From: Heptranchias perlo
Lineage: Eukaryota
Assembly (NCBI RefSeq): GCF_035084215.1
Contig: NC_090340.1
Span: 34,348,001-34,412,000, forward strand
DNA: 64,000 nucleotides
Direction: 5' to 3'
Each line of letters begins with the position of its first letter. Within the stretch, counting starts at the first letter, position 1. Position numbers and translations under genes: made by a program. The notes beneath the pieces are model-generated. The model worked only from the letters and a program-made list of their open reading frames with translations, did no database searches and was not told where the DNA came from. This document shows, one piece after another, positions 12,245-59,074 of this stretch.

Positions 12245-12460
12245 CTTTCCACTGTGAGCCGGCAGTTTGTGGTGTCGATGGTAGTCATGATGTGGAGATG
12301 CCGGTGATGGACTGGGGTTGACAATTGTAAACAATTTACCTGAGGAAGGAGGAAGTCTCCGAAAGCTTGTGAATTTAAAATAAAATTGCTGGACTATAAC
12401 TTGGTGTTGTAAAATTGTTTACAATTGTCAACCCCAGTCCATCACCGGCATCTCCACATC
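12245..12460. mobile_element. Miniature Penelope-like element: inverted-repeat pLTR fragment with 10-bp TSD
   Basis: Homologous to 52764-52930 of the long PLE; perfect 49-bp inverted repeat 12289-12337/12412-12460; ctcaactaca at 12235-12244 and 12460-12469. Confidence 0.9.
12333..12375 (+). ncRNA. Minimal type I hammerhead ribozyme motif
   Basis: aatttac-CTGAGGA-a-ggag(gaagt)ctcc-GAAA-gc-TT-gtgaatt: stem I, CUGANGA core, stem II, GAAA, palindromic AAGCTT in place of helix III. Confidence 0.7.
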
Positions 12461-29744: not shown

Positions 29745-30245
29745 GACCTCTTTGTCCTCGGCCTCTTACATTTGTTCCAATGAAGCTCAACATAAGCTCG
29801 AGGAACAGCACCTCATCTTTCGTTCAGGCACTTTACAACCTTCTGGACTCAACACTGATTTCAATAACTTCAGATCATAATCACTGCTCCCATTTTTTCG
29901 GTCAGCTAGTGCTGGTAATGGTTCTGCTGCTGCCATTTACAACTGCTACTGATCAATCTTTTGTTTCTTAACCTGTCCCATTACCACCCTCCTTGCCTTG
30001 AACCATCATCCCTTTTGTCATTTAATCACTCTTACCCTCCACCCTATTATAGAACTTCCCTTTTGTTCTTTCCTCCTCCGCCCCCACCCCCCCTTTCCCT
30101 GGCTCTGTACTTGCTTAAAAACTTTAACTCTTTAACATCTTCCAGTTCTGACGAAAGGTCTTCGACCTGAAACGTTAACTCTGTTTCTTTCTCCACAGAT
30201 GCTGCCTGACTTGCTGAGCTTCTCCAGCACTTTTTGTTTTTATAA
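29745..30245 (+). mobile_element. Penelope-like element 3' end (GIY-YIG C-terminus plus pLTR), second family
   Basis: KLEEQHLIFR.GTLQPSGLN.DFNNFR followed by a 3' region with a hammerhead motif and cagatgctgcctgac..gctgag tail. Confidence 0.8.
30144..30180 (+). ncRNA. Minimal hammerhead ribozyme motif
   Basis: agtt-CTGACGA-a-aggtc(ttc)gacct-GAAA-cg-TT-aact; palindrome AACGTT. Confidence 0.7.
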
Positions 30246-49624: not shown

Positions 49625-51015
49625 AAGCATGGCCAGGACCCATGAGGGTTCCCATAGTGACACCTTTTATTTGGAGGAAGTAAGTGGAATTAAATGAAAA
49701 GTTTTATAAGAAATAGGAGCAGGAGTAGGCCATACGGCCCCTCGAACCTACTCCGCCATTCAGTAAGATCATGGCTGAAAAGTTGATCAATGTGAGAATC
49801 AGTTCAGCCAGGCAGAGGGGGACAATGATGGGATCCCCTCATATTCCATCCCACCAGCCTCTGCATTTGACATATCATCCTCTGCCATTTTACACCGCCT
49901 CCAACACAATCCTACCACCAAACAAATCTTCTACCCTTTCAGCGTTCAGAAGGGAGTATTCCCTCCATGACACCCTCATCCACTCCTCCATCTCCCCTAA
50001 CACTTGCTATCCTTTCCTGACACCTTCCCATGCAAGTGCAGGAGATGTAACAACTGCCCTTTCACCTCCTCCCTTGCCACCGTCCAGGGTCCCAAACAAT
50101 ACTACCAGGTGAAACAGTAATTTACTTGTACTTCTTCCAACCTAGTATACTGGATTGACTGTTCACAATGTGGTCTCCTCTGCATCGAGAGACCAAATGC
50201 AGATTGGGTAATCACTTTGCTGAACACCTCCATTCCACCCATAAGTGCAACCCTAAGCTTCCAATCGCTTGCCTCTTGAATTCTCCATCCCTCTCCACTC
50301 TGACCTCTCTGTCCTTGGCCTCTTACACTGTTCCAATGAAACTCAATACAAGCTCGAGGAACAGTATCTTTCTACCAGGTACTTTACATCCCTCTGGCCA
50401 TAACGTTGACTTTAACAACCTTAGACCTTAACCACAGCTCCCATTTTATCTCAGACAGCAGGTGCTGGTAATGTAGGATAGGTGTACCAGCGATTCCAGG
50501 TATGGGGGAGTTTGTGAGTTGGTGCATGGGATTGGGATCCCTTATCAATACCCGACCAGCAAGGTGGTCTGCACCCCTAGTGTCACCTCTCTTTTTCTTC
50601 CAACATCCTCCCGGGCTACTGGAGCCTTCTCCGCTTTGCCATATTTTCCGTGCTTCCCTCCCCTTCCGATATTCTGCTGTAACCACTTACACATCCTTTG
50701 GGTCACAGATACATGATTAATTTCTCACACTCTTGCCTCCTTTTGTCACATCATTGTCACTTCTGTCAATTAAACATCTCGTCCTCCACCTAATCGCAGA
50801 CCATCCTTTTATTTTCTCCCCACTCCCATTTCCTTGACTCTTTTCCTCTTTATAAGTTGTTCATCTATAACATCTCCTGGTTCTGATGAAAGGTCATTGA
50901 CCTGAAAGGTTAAGCCTACCTTCATCTCTCTCCACAGATGCTGCCTGACCTGATGAGTGTTTCCAGCATTTTCTGTTTTTATTTCAGATTTCCAGCATCT
51001 GTTATATTTTGCTTT
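49625..51015 (+). mobile_element. Rearranged PLE: inverted RT fragment (49625-49820, -) plus GIY-YIG/3' end (+), with a nested CR1 tail at about 49707-49777
   Basis: CKCRRCN.CPFT, FTCTSSNLVY, ETKCRLGNHFAEHL, KLEEQ; the reverse piece reads GVTMGTLMGPGHA; decayed hammerhead at 50879-50915. Confidence 0.75.
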
Positions 51016-52763
51016 TTGTTTCTGTTTGCAAGCTCAGTGCTCTAAGTTATGTTTGAACTTGGTTTCCTGCCTAAATATCATCCAAAACATCAGCAAATGA
51101 TGATTTGTTTCAGTATACAAGCTTTGAAGAGAAAAATGGAAAGATACTGAAACACGTTTAATCTTTCACGTGTCACAGAAATATGCGGAGTCCGAAGTAT
51201 TTAAGGACATTCTTAGCTTGAGCAGTATCAAATGGAGTAATGAAATCCATCTGTTAAAGGGATAGCTTGTCAGGTTCCAGCTGTACAGAGTGGATAAGGA
51301 GGGCTACACATTTTTTTGTACAAGCACATTGTCAAGAATGTTTTCATATGCAGGCAGTATTATTTTTAAGGCAGTGCAAGCCAATTGGTTCTGCTCATGA
51401 CCACCAAAGTGTCAAACAATTGAATAGGTTATAGTCTATAACAAAATGATATCTTCAAGAAAATGGATTCTGTGTTTAATGATCCTTTCAACAATTGTAC
51501 AGTGCCCTCATATATTTTACTATCCCATCCCCATTTAATCACTGTAATCCACTGCTGCATTCATATCCTCCCTGTGCCCCACTGGTATGCAGCATTGCAT
51601 GTTGGTGCTGAAAAGCTCTACTCCACTATTCCTAATCCCAAGGGTTTTTGAGGCTAAGAATCCCTTTATTCGCAGCCTGTACCAATATTGCTCTAAAGCC
51701 AACTGCACAAAGGAATGCTAAAGCAGCCCATTGTGAGTCCCCCCAACAATTTTTCTCTTTCCATGTGGAGAAGCCTCTAGCTTCCATTTGGTGTCTCCCA
51801 CAGTGGCATGGCTAAGATTAGTAAATTATTAGCTTGTATAGCACTGAGAGCACTGGCCCATGACTTGCTGCCATTGTATGTTGATGTACCAGCATGCTGT
51901 GTGACTATGCACACAGGTGTACTTTATGTAAAATAATGTCAGTACAGCTTGATGTCTGCACTTGCTTCATATTGTAGTGGTGCCCCATTCTCATATCTGA
52001 AGAGGTTGATTCTTTCAAGAGAAATATTAAGGAGTTTTGATGGATTTTTTAAAAAATTATTATTCAATGTACCATTTCACATTTGCAATTTTTTGATATG
52101 CAAATATTGATGGCAGCAATGCAAAGAAGCAAGATGAAGTTCAATAGCTCTGGAGGTGTAATATGGATTTGTAATGCTTAATCAGAAAAATAAATGCATC
52201 ACAATGACCACATAAACTGGCTTATACAGTAAGACAGTCACAATTTGTGACAGGGATGGGTGTGTTGACTCCCATTGGGATGGGATTGGTTGGCATTATG
52301 AGCCACTTACCATTTTTCTCTCTCACCCCCACAAAGCAATATTTTGGAAATAAGATCAATAAAGGGCTCATAGTTTTAACAATGTTAAAAAGGAACAACA
52401 AGACACACGTCCATAAAATATTCAAGGAATGGGTAGGTTAGAATGGTCAAGAATTATCACACCTCCTGTGCCTTGGGTTCATGTCACGCTACACGTAACC
52501 CCACCAGCGAAAAAAAGTTATCTGTTTTTAACACAACGGGTCATTCTCTGTCTTTCTCTTCCTTTCGGATGTTTCTCTCTCTCTCTCTCTGTTTGTCTTT
52601 TTTGTTCTGGCCGTTTGTGTATTTGGTGGTCCTGTAGGTAACATCACTCTGTCTGAACACTTTGATTGCCTTGACAACGGGCAGTTGGAAAGATTATCTG
52701 TAATCACCAGGTATTGTTCTCTGACTATAAATGCGGTAACCTTCCATGGAATCCCACACTTGC

Positions 52764-52800
52764 TCACCTGACGAAGGAGAAAGCCTCCGAAAGCTTGTGA
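52764..52800 (+). ncRNA. Minimal hammerhead ribozyme motif in 5' pLTR
   Basis: tcac-CTGACGA-a-ggag(aaagc)ctcc-GAAA-gc-TT-gtga. Confidence 0.75.
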
Positions 52801-52888
52801 TTTTCAAATAAAACAGTTGGACTATAACCTGGTGTTGTAAGATTCCTTACATTTGTCAACCCCAGTCCATCACCGGCATCTCCACATC

Positions 52889-55544
52889 ATGGCTACTATC
52901 GACACCACAAACTACTGGCTCACAGTGGAGAGGATATCCAAGAAGATCGCGCATATAGACACAGACATCAAGTTTTTACAGAGCTGCAAGAAAGCAGACA
53001 AGATCCCGAAAGGACTACAGATCACGAACCCACTCAAGTCGACATACAACTCAGATTACGCTGAGAGACTCTGCCGTCGTACCTCTCGCACACTCCGCAA
53101 CCATCTCGTACACCAACTCTACAGAAGACGCCGCAACCTCGAAACCAAGATAGAGTCCATACTCTCAAACTGTACTCAGGACACAGCAGACCAGCTACGA
53201 GACACCACCAAACAGCCACCTACATGAAAACCAAGAGCAGGAAGCTTGAGAAACTCGGCATCACCACCAGCATCAACCAAGCCTCCCCCAATACCACGGT
53301 TGCAACCACAGGGAAGTCTATCGTCAATTTATCCGACCACACCCTTCAACCAGACGAAATCGAAGTTCTCAGCCGAGGGCTCAATTTCTGCCCCACCACC
53401 AAAATGGACCCCATTGGTCTCGCGGCGGACACAGAGGAATTCATCAGGAGAATGAGACTCCGGGAATTCTTCCACAAATCCCAAGATTTCAGCAGCGAAC
53501 CCAATGAGACAATCAACGATCCGGAACAGCAGACAGAGGGATCCGAGGTACAGCAACCGAAGAAGAAAGAGTCAAACTGGACTCCTCCGGAGGGTCGCTG
53601 CCCTAAGCTTGACATGTATGCTCAAGCTGTCAGGAAATGCGTCAATGCCAGATTCATCAGCCGCACTCACAAGACAGTCCAGAATGTCACCCGAGCACAA
53701 CGCAACGCCATCGACGCTCTCAAGACCAACCGCAACATCGTCATCAAACCAGCGGACAAAGGAGGAGCCATCGTCATACAGAACAGAACGGACTATTGCA
53801 AAGAAGCATACCGACAACTGGACAACCAGGAACACTTCAGACGGTTACCCGCAGATCCGACCAAGGAACACACCCACCAGCTCAACAAACTGATCAAGAC
53901 CTTCGATCCAGACCTTCAAAGCATCCTACGAGCTCTCATCCCACATACTCCCCGCGTGGGAGACTTCTACTGCCGCCCAAAGATACACAAAGCCAACACA
54001 CCCAGACGTCCTATCGTATCAGGCAATGGAACCCTGTGTGAGAACCTCTCTGGATACGTCGAGGGCATCCTGAAACCCATCGTACAGGGAACCCCCAGCT
54101 TCTGTCGCGACACTACAGACTTCCTACAAAAACTCAGCACCCACGGACCAGTTGAACCAGGAACACTTCTCACCACGATGGACGTCTCGGCACTCTACAC
54201 CAGTATCCCCCACGATGACGGCATCGCTGCAACAGCATCAGTACTCAACACCAACAATAGCCAATCCCCAGACGCCATCCTACAACTCATCCGCTTCATC
54301 CTGGATCACAATGTCTTCACCTTCGACAACCAGTTCTTTACCCAAACACACGGAACAGCCATGGGGACCAAATTCACACCCCAATACGCCAACATTTTCA
54401 TGCACAAGTTCGAGCACGACTTCTTCACTGCACAGGACCTCCAACCAACGCTATACACCAGATACATCGACGACATTTTCTTCCTATGGACCCATGGCGA
54501 AGAATCACTGAAGAGACTACACGATAACATCAACAAATTCCATCCCACCATCAAACTCACCATGGACTACTCCTCAGAATTGGTTTCTTTCTTGGACACA
54601 CAAATCTCCATCAAAGACGGGCACCTCAGCACCTCACTCTACCGCAAGCCCACGGACAACCTCACGATGCTCCACTTTTCCAGCTCCCACCCTAACCACG
54701 TCAAAGAGGCCATCCCCTATGGACAGGCCCTGCAAATACACAGGATCTGCTCAGACGAGGAGGAACGCGATGGACACCTACAGACGCTGAAAGACGTCCT
54801 CGTAAGAACGGGATATGACGCTCGACTCGTCGATCGACAGTTCCGACAGGCCACAGCGAAAAATCGCATAGACCTCCTCAGAAGACTAACACGGGACGCA
54901 ACCAACAGAGTACCCTTCGTCGTCCAGTACTTCCCCGGAGCGGAGAAACTACGCCATGTTCTCCGCAGCCTTCAACATGTCATCGATGACGACGAACACC
55001 TCGCTATGGCCATCCCCACACCTCCACTACTCGCCTTCAAACAGCCACCCAACCTCAAACAGACCATCGTTCGCAGCAAATTATCCAGCTTTCAGGAGAA
55101 CAGCGTCCACGACACCACACAACCCTGCCACGGCAACCTCTGCAAGACATGCCAGATCATCGACACAGACACCAGCATCACACGAGAGGACACCACCCAC
55201 CAGGTACATGGTTCATACTCCTGTGACTCGGCCAACGTTGTCTACCTCATACGTTGCAGGAAAGGATGCCCCGGAGCATGGTACATTGGCGAGACCATAC
55301 AGACACTGCGACAACGGATGAACGGACACCGCGCAACAATTGCCAGACAGGAGGGTTCCCTCCCAGTCGGGGAACACTTCAGCAGTCAAGGACATTCAGC
55401 CACCGATCTTCGGGTAAGCGTTCTCCAAGGCGGCCTTCAAGACACACGACACGCAAAATCGTCGAACAGAAATTGATAGCCAAGTTCCGCACCCATGAGG
55501 ACGGCCTCAACCGGGATCTTGGGTTCATGTCACGCTACACGTAA
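52889..55544 (+). CDS. PLE polyprotein: reverse transcriptase plus GIY-YIG endonuclease (750-aa open stretch 53224-55476; frameshifts near 53215 and 55450)
   Basis: KPADKGGAIV, PKIHK..RPIVS, MDVSALYTSIPH, GTAMGT, YTRYIDDIF, FLD, PCHGNLCKTC, VVYLIRC..C..WYIGET..LRQRMNGH; alternate-frame end EQKLIAKFRTHEDGLNRD. Confidence 0.92.
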
Positions 55545-55805
55545 CCCCACCAGCGAAAAAAAGTTATCTGTTTTTAACACAACGGGTTATTCTCTGTCTT
55601 TCTCTTCCTTTCGGATGTTTCTCTCTCTCTCTGTCTGTCTTTTTTGTTCTGGCCGTTTGTGTATTTGGTGGTCCTGTAGGTAACATCACTCTGTCTGAAC
55701 ACTTTGATTGCCTTGACAACGGGCAGTTGGAAAGATTATCTGTAATCACCAGGTATTGTTCTCTGACTATAAATGCGGTAACCTTCCATGGAATCCCACA
55801 CTTGC

Positions 55806-55842
55806 TCACCTGACGAAGGAGAAAGCCTCCGAAAGCTTGTGA
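55806..55842 (+). ncRNA. Minimal hammerhead ribozyme motif in 3' pLTR
   Basis: Identical to the copy at 52764-52800. Confidence 0.75.
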
Positions 55843-55972
55843 TTTTCAAATAAAACAGTTAGACTATAACCTGGTGTTGTAAGATTCCTTAGATACACTA
55901 AACAAAGACATGCAAAGTTCATTAGTTTAATATTTAAATCTACTTTGAAGTTTCCATTATGTTAGAGTCAGA

Positions 55973-56697
55973 CTTTTTACCAGAATTAAACTGTTTCTTT
56001 TGCCAAATATCTTAAATCTGTGTTCATTGGTTACTGACCCTCCTGTCCATGGAAATAGTTTCTCACACTCTACTCTTATCAAAACCTTTCATAATTTTGA
56101 ACATGTCTATTATATCTCCCCTGAACCTTCTCTGATCTAAGGAGAGCAATCTTAGTTTCTCTGGTCTCTCCACATAACTGAAGTCCCTCATCCCTGGTAC
56201 CATTCCAGTAAATCTCCTCTGCACCCTCTCCAAGGTGACATGCTTATTAACATTCTTCCTAGAGTGTGGTGCCCAGATTGGACACAATACTCCAACTGAG
56301 GCCTAACCAGTGATTTATGAATGTTTAGCCTAACGTCCTTCCTTTTGTACTCTATGCCTCTATTTATAAAGTCAAGGATCCTGTATTTTTTTTAACAACC
56401 TTATCAACTTCTCCTGCTACCTTCTAAGATTTGTGTATTTGAATCCCCTGGTCTCTCTGTTCCTGCACCCCCTTTAAAACTGTACCATTTAGCTTATATT
56501 GCCAAGTTCTTAACATTAATGCTTAGAAAGCACCGTATTTACTAGCTACTTAGAAATGTATTAGTTGTGCAATATTTCAGAAAATATTAATCTTGACTCT
56601 ACTGGCATATTAAATAGTAAATAAATAGACAAATTGTTTTCAACCCGCTCGCTTTTCTCTTGAGCTCAGCCATTCTTATCATTCCTAGATCCAGCCA
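55973..56697 (-). repeat. Inverted twin of the composite repeat at 37458-38139 (leader plus CR1 fragment)
   Basis: Reverse complement aligns: atctaggaatga..aagaatggctgagc..tttaatatgccagtagag.caagattaatattttctg..ctaagcattaatgtt..gcaatataa.ctaaatgg..ggcaaaagaa..ttctggt.aaaagt. Confidence 0.8.
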
Positions 56698-58089
56698 ACT
56701 TGTGCCATGGAACCTTATTCAGTTCTGTAACCTATAGAGGCACCCAATACTGTGCTATTTTTTGTCATATTTTGTACAGAGTAACATTTTATTTTGTACA
56801 ATTCATTCAAAAAATAAACATGGTCTCTACTATTCTCAATGATTAAGTTAGTTTACTGTTTTGTAAGCGGATCTATTCAGTCTAAAAAAACATCCTTTTG
56901 AAACTTTGGGTTGCAAACTGAGTGTAACTTATTCATTGTAAAAAAAACAAGGAAAATGTTTCCAGCATTTTCTGTTTTTATTTCAGATTTTAAGGATCTG
57001 AAGCATTTTGCTTTTTATTTGTTTCCTTCATGTTGCCATTGAACAGTTTTATTACTTCATTATGTGGCACTAATGCTATTTAGTAGCTTGCAAGCACTGC
57101 CATTATAATTTAACCCTCCATTAATTTGTGCTGCAGTTTTTCTAAATTACCATTAATTGAAGTGCCTACAGCCTTTTTTTAAAAATTCAATGGCTCATGG
57201 CCCTTGCCCAAGTGGGAGGAATAAGCCACCACGATGGTGCTTCTCGGCCAGCATCACCACGTTCTCATGTCCAGTGTGATTGCCCCTGGATATAACTGTG
57301 CAGAGGCTTTGAATGACACATTTGTGTCATTGTGCCAGTCTCTGATTTATTTTCTTACCTTGATTCTCATCATTGGATGAATAGCCTTTTTAACCACTGC
57401 CAGCTTGTGAACCCCACCTCTTGTCACTCCAGCAGAACAGTCGCATCGTGGAAGCATGCTAGAAATAAACTTGCATTTAAAAAGCTAGGATATTCACATA
57501 TGTACTGGTTCAGTGCACGATAATGGATGTATGTATTAATATATCAACAATAGATGGCTTACAAAAAGATTAAGGAACAGCTCCTGATGCAAAAACAAAG
57601 AAATAGAGAGTCCTACCCCATATTACACAGTTCAATAGGTTTACAGTATTTTTAAAAAGTTGTCAAGCGGCTACACCCAGTAAAAGATGAGTTCCAGGGA
57701 GATGACACTCTACACACTGCAGTTTCTGATCATTGATTGGATCCCATCGTGGCTGCCTTGATGATACTTCTCAGGATATATATTTCATTTTATTGAGTTC
57801 TCAGGAAAGTACATTCACATGTATGCTTTTTATGCAGCTATTGTACACAAAGCTGTACATGCAAACATATATTTTATGAAGAGGCTTTTTCCCAACAAAT
57901 GACAAAAATATATTCAAGAATTGGTCTAGTGGTACATAATTCTTCACTGCCTTTTGGAATTAAACATACTGGGGTAAGAATTCCTCGACTCACTTTGTGT
58001 AGTTGTGTATGTGAAGATTTCCTCTGGCATTTCTGCAAAATATAAACAAGTTGTAAAAGAACATATTTGCAAGTTACTTGCAGAGGAAC

Positions 58090-58185
58090 GGGTAGATTTT
58101 CAACTTGCTTTCGGGGTGTAAAACTGTCATTGCTGATTGGCCGCCTGCTATAGAAATCGCCCGATTTTCACATCCATTGATTTCA
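58090..58185. mobile_element. Very short MITE-like element
   Basis: gggtagattttc start and gaaagtcatccg end resemble the Harbinger-type termini; CpG-rich relative to the flanks. Confidence 0.4.
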
Positions 58186-59074
58186 CATAAAGTGAAAGTC
58201 ATCCGTGCACACCGATGATTAGATTATTGCTAAAAGTATAAACCACTTATTTATGGATGTTGTTTCCTCAAACTGATCAAGGCAGATTCAGGAAGAGAGC
58301 AATAATCTCTCACACATTCTTCTTGTAGCTCAATGGCTTAAATTGGTGGCCAATTTTGGAAGATTTCAGTGTGAATGGTGCTATGGGGAACTGCTGGGAA
58401 TGATACTGCGACTAGTGTTTCTGAATGTTGATACCATTTAAAAATTATTTTTAGCATGTATGTGGAAGACAAATAAAAATATTTTGTCCATTTTTTTTTC
58501 ATTTTTTAAAAAAACACGTTGAATAGCCAAAATATCTCTGCCATTATGACTGTAAAACTGGTCTCTTGATTTCTCTTTCCTAAAACTGCCTCTTCACTAA
58601 TGTACAAAGAAAAAGACTTTTGTTCTGGGTGCCTACTTAGTTCGGTGAGACATGAGATTAACCTTTATTCTATTTATGCTCAGACTCAGAGAGAATTCGG
58701 GTTACCAGTCATTGCCTACACTTGTAGGGTGGGATAGTGTCGTGAACAAAGTGTAAAGATTTAGGTCCTGATAATCTTTCCTGCCCCAGCGCAAGACAAG
58801 CAAAGCACTTCAGCAATTTGCTTCACCTGTCCAGGACACCTTGTGCCCAAATTTGGTGGCCCAGGCCATTAAGATGGTCTGATTGTCCCCAGGTGCAAGC
58901 CCACCCCTAGCATAGCTTTGCACCAGCAATTAGGGGTGGAATCAGTTGAAGGCCTGGCCACCAGAACCAGTGATTTCTGGCTGCTCTTGGAGAACAACAG
59001 CCAGCAGGCTCCAAAATCTGAGGGGGTTCTTAGCATAAGGCCCAGTGCTAGCTTCCTTGGGAACCAATGGTAGT

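What the first reader, a model, noticed from the sequence alone, without database searches (positions are those of the whole stretch)
52472..55891. Young Penelope-like element with identical minimal hammerhead ribozymes in both pseudo-LTRs
Seen: RT plus GIY-YIG ORF with only two frameshifts, flanked by about 375-bp near-identical direct repeats. Each repeat holds tcac-CTGACGA-stem II-GAAA-GC-TT-gtga, where helix III is reduced to the palindrome AAGCTT. Established: PLEs often carry minimal type I hammerheads that lack a stable helix III and are thought to cleave as dimers. Inference: a read-through transcript would let the two copies pair through the palindrome and excise a unit-length RNA of about 3.04 kb (52797-55838) containing the whole ORF, a self-processed and possibly circularisable transposition intermediate. 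The extra A after CUGANGA and the predicted CUU cleavage triplet are non-canonical.
Basis: partly seen in the sequence, partly recalled or inferred. Interest (0 to 1): 0.72.

Follow-up and report, generated by a model that had tools for sequence, protein, structure and literature searches.

The report
Shark Penelope element with paired ribozymes
This is a broken copy of a known kind of jumping gene with a small, likely self-cutting RNA motif in each end repeat; that layout and the RNA-circle idea are already published, but the ends of about 200 sister copies show that long copies were read straight through the predicted cut site and the inferred RNA start, as they would be if the template were an RNA circle.

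Summary
Observation confirmed: a Penelope-like element (likely Neptune type) with RT and GIY-YIG, two frameshifts, and 378/374-bp pLTRs carrying identical minimal hammerheads. The genome has 50,626 exact matches to this motif. The core is conserved and the stems covary. The extra A, the palindrome, the dimer model and the circle hypothesis are all in Cervera and de la Pena 2014, so the finding is known in kind.

Sister copies test the mechanism. 3' ends lie about 55 or 93 nt past the cut, almost never at it. Among hammerhead-bearing arms, 56 of 100 stop just upstream of the ribozyme, at an inferred capped start. Copies that crossed the whole ORF pass that point again (5 of 54 stop) and show no pile-up at the cut. 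A linear excised monomer is therefore not the template; a re-ligated circle fits best (about 0.5). Multimeric read-through and template jumping remain open. Inverted arms often carry different variants (9 of 22), tandem pLTRs rarely (2 of 47). No RNA or cleavage data were obtained. The scan had already noted twin priming and run-off elsewhere.

The parts
52472..52849 (+). 5' pseudo-LTR (3' end of a 5'-truncated upstream unit; starts 325 nt before the cut)
   Evidence: begins inside the last codons of the ORF copy
52726..52731 (+). TATAAA box; RNA start inferred about 52750-52756
   Evidence: start inferred from the pile-up of copy 5' ends at -32..-49, not mapped on RNA
52764..52800 (+). 5' minimal type I hammerhead (C3=52768, extra A=52775, palindrome AAGCTT 52791-52796, predicted cut 52796|52797)
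52807..52812 (+). AATAAA 11 nt after the predicted cut, nearly invariant in the family (possible poly(A) signal, untested)
52851..52888 (+). 'Tail': about 38 nt between the two inferred RT start sites (+55 and +93)
   Evidence: bimodal 3' ends of 100 copies
52889..55544 (+). RT-endonuclease ORF, broken by frameshifts near 53214 and 55450; DKG 53755, YIDD 54463, CX4CxxC linker 55126-55152, VVY...YIG 55237
55518..55891 (+). 3' pseudo-LTR; the element ends at the short (+55-type) site, without tail; no TSD or inverted arm found for this copy
55806..55842 (+). 3' minimal hammerhead, identical to the 5' one; predicted cut 55838|55839

Best explanation
This is a frameshifted copy of a Penelope-like retrotransposon, likely of the Neptune type, whose two end repeats each hold a conserved minimal hammerhead that is predicted to cut only as a dimer, and whose long genomic copies were likely reverse-transcribed from a unit-length RNA circle. 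Proposed cycle: (1, inferred) transcription starts about 45 nt before the 5' hammerhead and the capped RNA is translated. (2, inferred) The protein nicks both target strands 8-14 bp apart and starts two cDNAs, one 55 and one 93 nt past the cut, often on two different RNAs; the end positions and TSDs themselves are shown. (3, inferred) On uncut capped RNA the cDNAs run off after 100-140 nt and leave the many short stubs. (4, inferred) When two hammerheads pair through AAGCUU, possibly with the protein's help, the RNA is cut at both ends and closed to a circle of about 3.05 kb. RT then runs past the joint without stopping and rebuilds a partial tandem such as this one, promoter included.
For: Core positions 98.8% conserved against 72% upstream in 68 pLTRs picked without using the hammerhead. 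9 of 11 pairs show double-sided changes; 95% of cells pair, against 34-49% when slid. 3' ends: 51 short, 46 long, 3 other of 100. First pass: 56 of 100 stop at -32..-49 (44 of 78 with one arm per insertion). Second pass: 5 of 54 stop there, p=5e-9, and none at -43..-49. No wall at the cut: 3 of 65 stop at +1..+15. The 61 5' junctions that the regex could read keep the sequence across the cut. Tandem pLTRs differ at shared variants in 2 of 47 copies, inverted arms in 9 of 22, p=3e-4. One arm holds about 2.6 units, with 1 difference in 3036 nt between its two full units. 43 of 78 long-bodied copies keep the TATA region, so plain linear transcripts of such donors should have produced a second wall.
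Against: No cleavage, RNA end or circle was observed. For the anole Poseidon element, hammerhead mutants did not affect insertion in vitro and no RNA-seq reads ended at the cut (PMC11167929). Naiad and most Chlamys elements form pLTRs and tandems without hammerheads (PMC8557442), so another route exists. A multimeric locus that could serve as a linear donor exists (L306). RT does jump imprecisely in this family: 22 of 100 ORF-start hits were short pieces, about half joined to another pLTR piece. Sequence just downstream of the cut is also highly conserved, so conservation is not confined to the ribozyme. The RNA start is inferred from DNA only. The test for recombination at the cut gave conflicting signs. 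If circles form, unligated cut RNA should also be copied, yet 5' ends at the cut are only about 1.5 times the neighbouring control (180 and 194 against 120).
Confidence: 0.5

Rival explanations
1. Long copies come from uncut linear read-through RNA of rare multimeric donors or from upstream host promoters. The hammerhead trims or regulates RNA and does not make the template.
For: Matches the scenario in PMC11167929. L306 holds two full open-frame units behind a partial one. Unequal crossover between pLTRs could renew multimers (inference).
Against: 1 such locus among about 98 examined, though five more reach the 1.2-kb mapping limit, yet 44 of 100 arms pass the inferred start. The youngest subfamily's 5' ends are all different. 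Each linear round would lose one unit (inference).
Confidence: 0.25
2. RT starts near the 5' end, runs to the cap and jumps by homology into the 3' pLTR, as in LTR-element strand transfer. The 3' hammerhead cut would only define the RNA's 3' end.
For: Explains identical pLTRs and renewal of the tail. Template jumps are seen in this family. Block correlation links -44..-10 more with downstream than with upstream sequence (0.73 against 0.60).
Against: The same chance of failing to jump should apply at the second pass, but 56% fail first and 9% second. This objection lapses if stubs come mostly from solo-pLTR transcripts. The jumps seen are imprecise, whereas tandem junctions are seamless. No RNase H domain was found by Pfam.
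Confidence: 0.18
3. One reading: the excised 3.04-kb monomer is itself the transposition template.
For: A slight excess of ends at the cut: 42 against 17 for 3' ends and 180 against 120 for 5' ends. One earlier scan note reports a single hairpin starting at the cut (untested).
Against: 97 of 100 copies end 45-102 nt beyond the 3' cut. 62 of 78 long-bodied copies extend upstream of the 5' cut. 7 of 30 inspected 'cut-start' copies are helix-I microhomology joints.
Confidence: 0.04
4. The motif no longer cuts; it is kept as a folded protein-binding or RNA-dimerising signal (AAGCUU kissing) that brings two templates together.
For: Two arms often carry different variants. Published in vitro activity is low. 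Both arms share the short or long state in 21 of 22 pairs.
Against: Catalytic positions are nearly invariant while N7 and loop II vary, as in active hammerheads. The anole motif cleaves with protein present.
Confidence: 0.1

Closest known systems
[quoted passage not shown]
   Same: Motif in both pLTRs about 3 kb apart, extra nucleotide between 9 and 10.1, G10.1-C11.1 pair, palindromic 15.2-16.2, dimer model, circle and more-than-unit reverse transcription proposed; reported in fish Neptune, Poseidon and Xena elements.
   Different: Helix II here is 4-5 bp (7-8 in their Schistosoma families). One exact pattern gives 50,626 matches, against about 4,000 and 9,000 reported for coelacanth and Xenopus with a different method. 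They offered no copy-end test.
PAc, Poseidon element of Anolis (Frangieh et al. 2024, PMC11167929; parts 1-2 of 4 read)
   Same: Two internal RT start sites bounding the tail; both strands cut and extended; hammerhead upstream of the start sites.
   Different: Here the start sites lie in the 5' UTR, not inside the ORF. One arm takes each site (20 of 20 classifiable pairs), whereas no strand difference was seen in vitro. CX4CxxC linker points to Neptune type.
EN+ PLE insertion anatomy (PMC3846280, PMC8557442, PMC2377424; passages read)
   Same: Partial tandem, inverted 5' arm, one-sided 30-40 bp tail, TSD about 8-10 bp, promoter in the upstream pLTR.
   Different: PMC3846280 suggests self-priming on an antisense template for inversions; the variant differences between arms here favour two separately primed RNAs. 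[quoted passage not shown]
Non-LTR retrozymes (bioRxiv 10.64898/2026.07.22.740005; part 1 and passages read)
   Same: Type I hammerhead in repeats; circles reported for retrozymes; derived from PLE pLTRs.
   Different: This element encodes RT and endonuclease and is not a short non-coding tandem.

Membership tests
EN+ Penelope-like element | Single ORF with RT | tested here: met
   RVT_1 E=2.8e-9, YIDD; 21 of 100 relatives have an open frame of at least 850 aa
EN+ Penelope-like element | C-terminal GIY-YIG endonuclease | tested here: met
   PF01541 E=6e-4, 20.4 bits, below cut-off 22.6; VVY...YIG motif; many homologues list PF01541
EN+ Penelope-like element | pLTR from partial tandem, optional tail, inverted arms with TSD | tested here: met
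   pLTR in this copy; tail and 22 of 23 inverted pairs with 8-14 bp TSD in the family; this copy has no TSD or inverted arm
EN+ Penelope-like element | 5' UTR intron (some members only) | tested here: inconclusive
   A GT..AG span of 69 nt starts at the cut, but the donor varies among subfamilies; no such joint listed in contigs
Neptune/Nematis clade | CX2-5CxxC linker between RT and EN | tested here: met
   CHGNLCKTC at 55126; definition from PMC8557442
Neptune/Nematis clade | Placement in an RT tree with labelled references | not tested
   No labelled reference set was available; 'Neptune' rests on the linker and on Neptune and Poseidon being the vertebrate clades
Minimal type I hammerhead | Core CUGANGA, GAAA, UH; extra nucleotide 9/10.1; G10.1-C11.1; palindromic helix III | tested here: met
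Minimal type I hammerhead | Covariation in helices I and II | tested here: met
   45 distinct rows, 37 double-sided cells; two rows are of another family, but within-family changes exist (UA/CG 7, AU/GC 6, GC/AU/CG); rows are related, so not independent
Minimal type I hammerhead | Self-cleavage as a dimer | not testable with these tools
   Free cofolding did not return the dimeric hammerhead as lowest-energy form
Rfam hammerhead families | Covariance-model match | tested here: not met
   No hammerhead hit at E<=5 in 50000-58500
Non-LTR retrozyme | Non-coding short tandem units | tested here: not met
   Coding 3-kb unit

The most novel reading that the evidence does not exclude
Genomic copy ends record two template states of one Penelope RNP: uncut capped RNA gives short stubs, while hammerhead-cut, re-ligated circles give the long and more-than-unit copies that rebuild the pLTR. 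The RNP carries two RNAs from different loci, processed together, possibly paired through the AAGCUU palindrome like a retroviral dimer signal. This would be in vivo evidence for rolling-circle reverse transcription in an autonomous vertebrate retrotransposon.
Probability: 0.35. Interest if true: 0.75.

Novelty: new member of a known kind. Interest (0 to 1): 0.45.

Why it matters
The element itself is ordinary for its class. What matters is that the role of PLE hammerheads is called unclear (PMC8557442) and pLTR regeneration has no obvious mechanism (PMC2377424).

Tried and rejected
Rfam scan: no hammerhead. PDB sequence search: no match. One search used too long a gap and returned 38 odd copies, which were not used for counts. 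The +2 control was spoiled by a GTGG subfamily and dropped. mis-mapped 5' ends through inverted partners and was replaced. One search suggested a pile-up at +1 that was an artefact of the reference edge (corrected). In one search seven places merged as identical were restored, and 22 short-bodied hits were dropped before the second-pass count. Sequencing runs: no RNA holder listed; contigs of four runs could not show ends, splicing or strand. Linkage test for recombination at the cut: |D'| lowest across the cut (0.64 against 0.79 and 0.86), block correlation pointing the other way; inconclusive. Intron starting at the cut: not supported. Lunse et al. on dimeric PLE hammerheads could not be read; I saw only its title and a review's passage (PMC6765202), so U17 and other variants may be described there. 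That NUH allows U17 but slowly is recalled. Searches for a published copy-end or twin-priming test in PLEs listed none by title or abstract start; subscription papers and supplements were not seen.

Full report
Observation. The repeats, both hammerheads, the 3042-nt unit and the two frameshifts are as described. The protein has RT, a weak GIY-YIG match and a CX4CxxC linker, which PMC8557442 gives for Neptune and Nematis elements. The closest named homologues are shark proteins at 77-94% identity, then reptile and invertebrate proteins at about 35-45%. This copy ends at the short 3' site and has no TSD or inverted arm.

The ribozyme motif. One exact pattern matches 50,626 times in the 3.25-Gb genome, with 0 for the reversed control. 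A second family gives 3,497. In 68 3' pLTRs located without using the hammerhead, the 11 core positions are 98.8% conserved, against 72% for -100..-35 and 66% for N7 plus loop II. The region after the cut is also conserved (88% at +5..+20), so part of the constraint is probably the protein-binding site. Helices I and II covary, and the second family swaps the palindrome to AACGTT. All features called non-canonical except U17 are listed as class features in PMC4209133, which also proposes dimer cleavage and circular templates.

Where copies end. I took the first 100 listed matches on contig C1 (of 50,626). 3' ends: 51 at +45..+70, 46 at +85 or beyond, 3 elsewhere. Genome-wide, 42 matches break off at the cut and 17 two bases earlier. 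Of 23 head-to-head pairs, 22 have an 8-14 bp TSD (control 12 of 494); 20 have one short and one long end and none has two alike. This fits priming from both nicks at the two internal sites shown in vitro for the anole element. The one-sided tail is already described, and earlier scan notes reached the twin-priming reading too (seen after my own count).

First pass against second pass. 56 of the 100 arms stop 32-49 nt before the cut, 25 of them at -43..-49, about 30 nt behind TATAAA. The pattern cannot see ends nearer than -32. I read this as run-off from a capped, uncut RNA. I then fetched the first 100 of 309 ORF-start matches and kept the 78 with at least 400 nt of continuous body. Stops: 13 of 78 at +93..+16, 3 of 65 at +15..+1, 8 of 62 at -1..-31, 5 of 54 at -32..-49, 10 of 49 at -50..-100. 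The rate is 0.2-0.5% per base throughout, against 3.1% per base at the first-pass wall (p=5e-9; 2e-8 with one arm per insertion). Long copies thus came from templates with no end at the cut and none at the inferred start. Pattern counts agree that the cut is at most a minor 5' end: 180 at +1, 194 at +13, 120 at -1 (the patterns differ, so this comparison is rough).

One template or two. Over -45..+52, tandem pLTRs of one copy differ at variants shared with other loci in 2 of 47 cases; inverted arms do so in 9 of 22, sometimes at 3-4 linked sites (p=3e-4). Later gene conversion should hit both alike, so the arms likely come from two RNAs and the two pLTRs from one sequence. Both arms of a pair are short or both long in 21 of 22 pairs (p=2e-5), also where the arms differ in variant. 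This is unexplained unless both RNAs are processed together, or the joining step evens out arm lengths.

Mechanism. Shown: sequence, conservation, end positions, TSDs. Inferred: RNA start, twin priming, cleavage, ligation. A re-ligated circle explains seamless passage, identical pLTRs, renewal of promoter and tail, and a 2.6-unit arm, and I give it about 0.5. Multimeric or host-driven read-through (0.25) and homology jumping (0.18) remain. Against the circle: hammerhead mutants did not impair insertion in vitro and no RNA ends were found at the cut in the anole; Naiads manage without hammerheads; RT jumps occur here; the recombination test was inconclusive; no RNA evidence was obtained. The samples are small and come from the first contigs listed.

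Verdict. A new member of a known kind. The added value is a genomic test that narrows an open question. I found no such test in my paper searches, with the limits stated under Tried and rejected. Interest 0.45.

Noticed in passing
window 12245-12460: Fold-back mini-insertion of a sister subfamily with an 11-bp TSD (TCTCAACTACA); its arms end at about +91 and +133, the usual 40-nt offset shifted by one step.
   Followed up: partly
window 30142-30182 and 50877-50918: Minimal hammerheads of a second repeat family (palindrome AACGTT; one copy mutated); 3,497 exact matches genome-wide. Its parent element was not traced.
   Followed up: partly
L305/L306 (G000:C6:66255138-66268100): One insertion with about 2.6 tandem units on one arm and more than one unit inverted; full units differ by 1 base in 3036 and have open frames.
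   Followed up: partly
L221, L227, L233, L245, L249, L259, L270, L273, L275, L277, L296, L298: Short pieces reaching +126..+226 into the ORF are joined in tandem in front of a pLTR piece, suggesting that RT re-starts on ORF-containing RNA after stopping.
   Followed up: partly
window 52797-52865: A 69-nt GT..AG span starts exactly at the predicted cut, about 46 nt after the inferred start; Drosophila Penelope has a 75-bp intron 46 bp after its start. The donor is not conserved in all subfamilies and no spliced joint was listed.
   Followed up: partly
window 50958-51021 and 56957-57020: 64-nt direct repeat 6 kb apart flanking the element at a distance; the first follows the second-family hammerhead, so probably two dispersed copies of that family.
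   Followed up: no
L031-L060: Several copies carry short duplications inside the hammerhead's 5' strand in one arm only, which may mark RT stutter near the RNA start.
   Followed up: no
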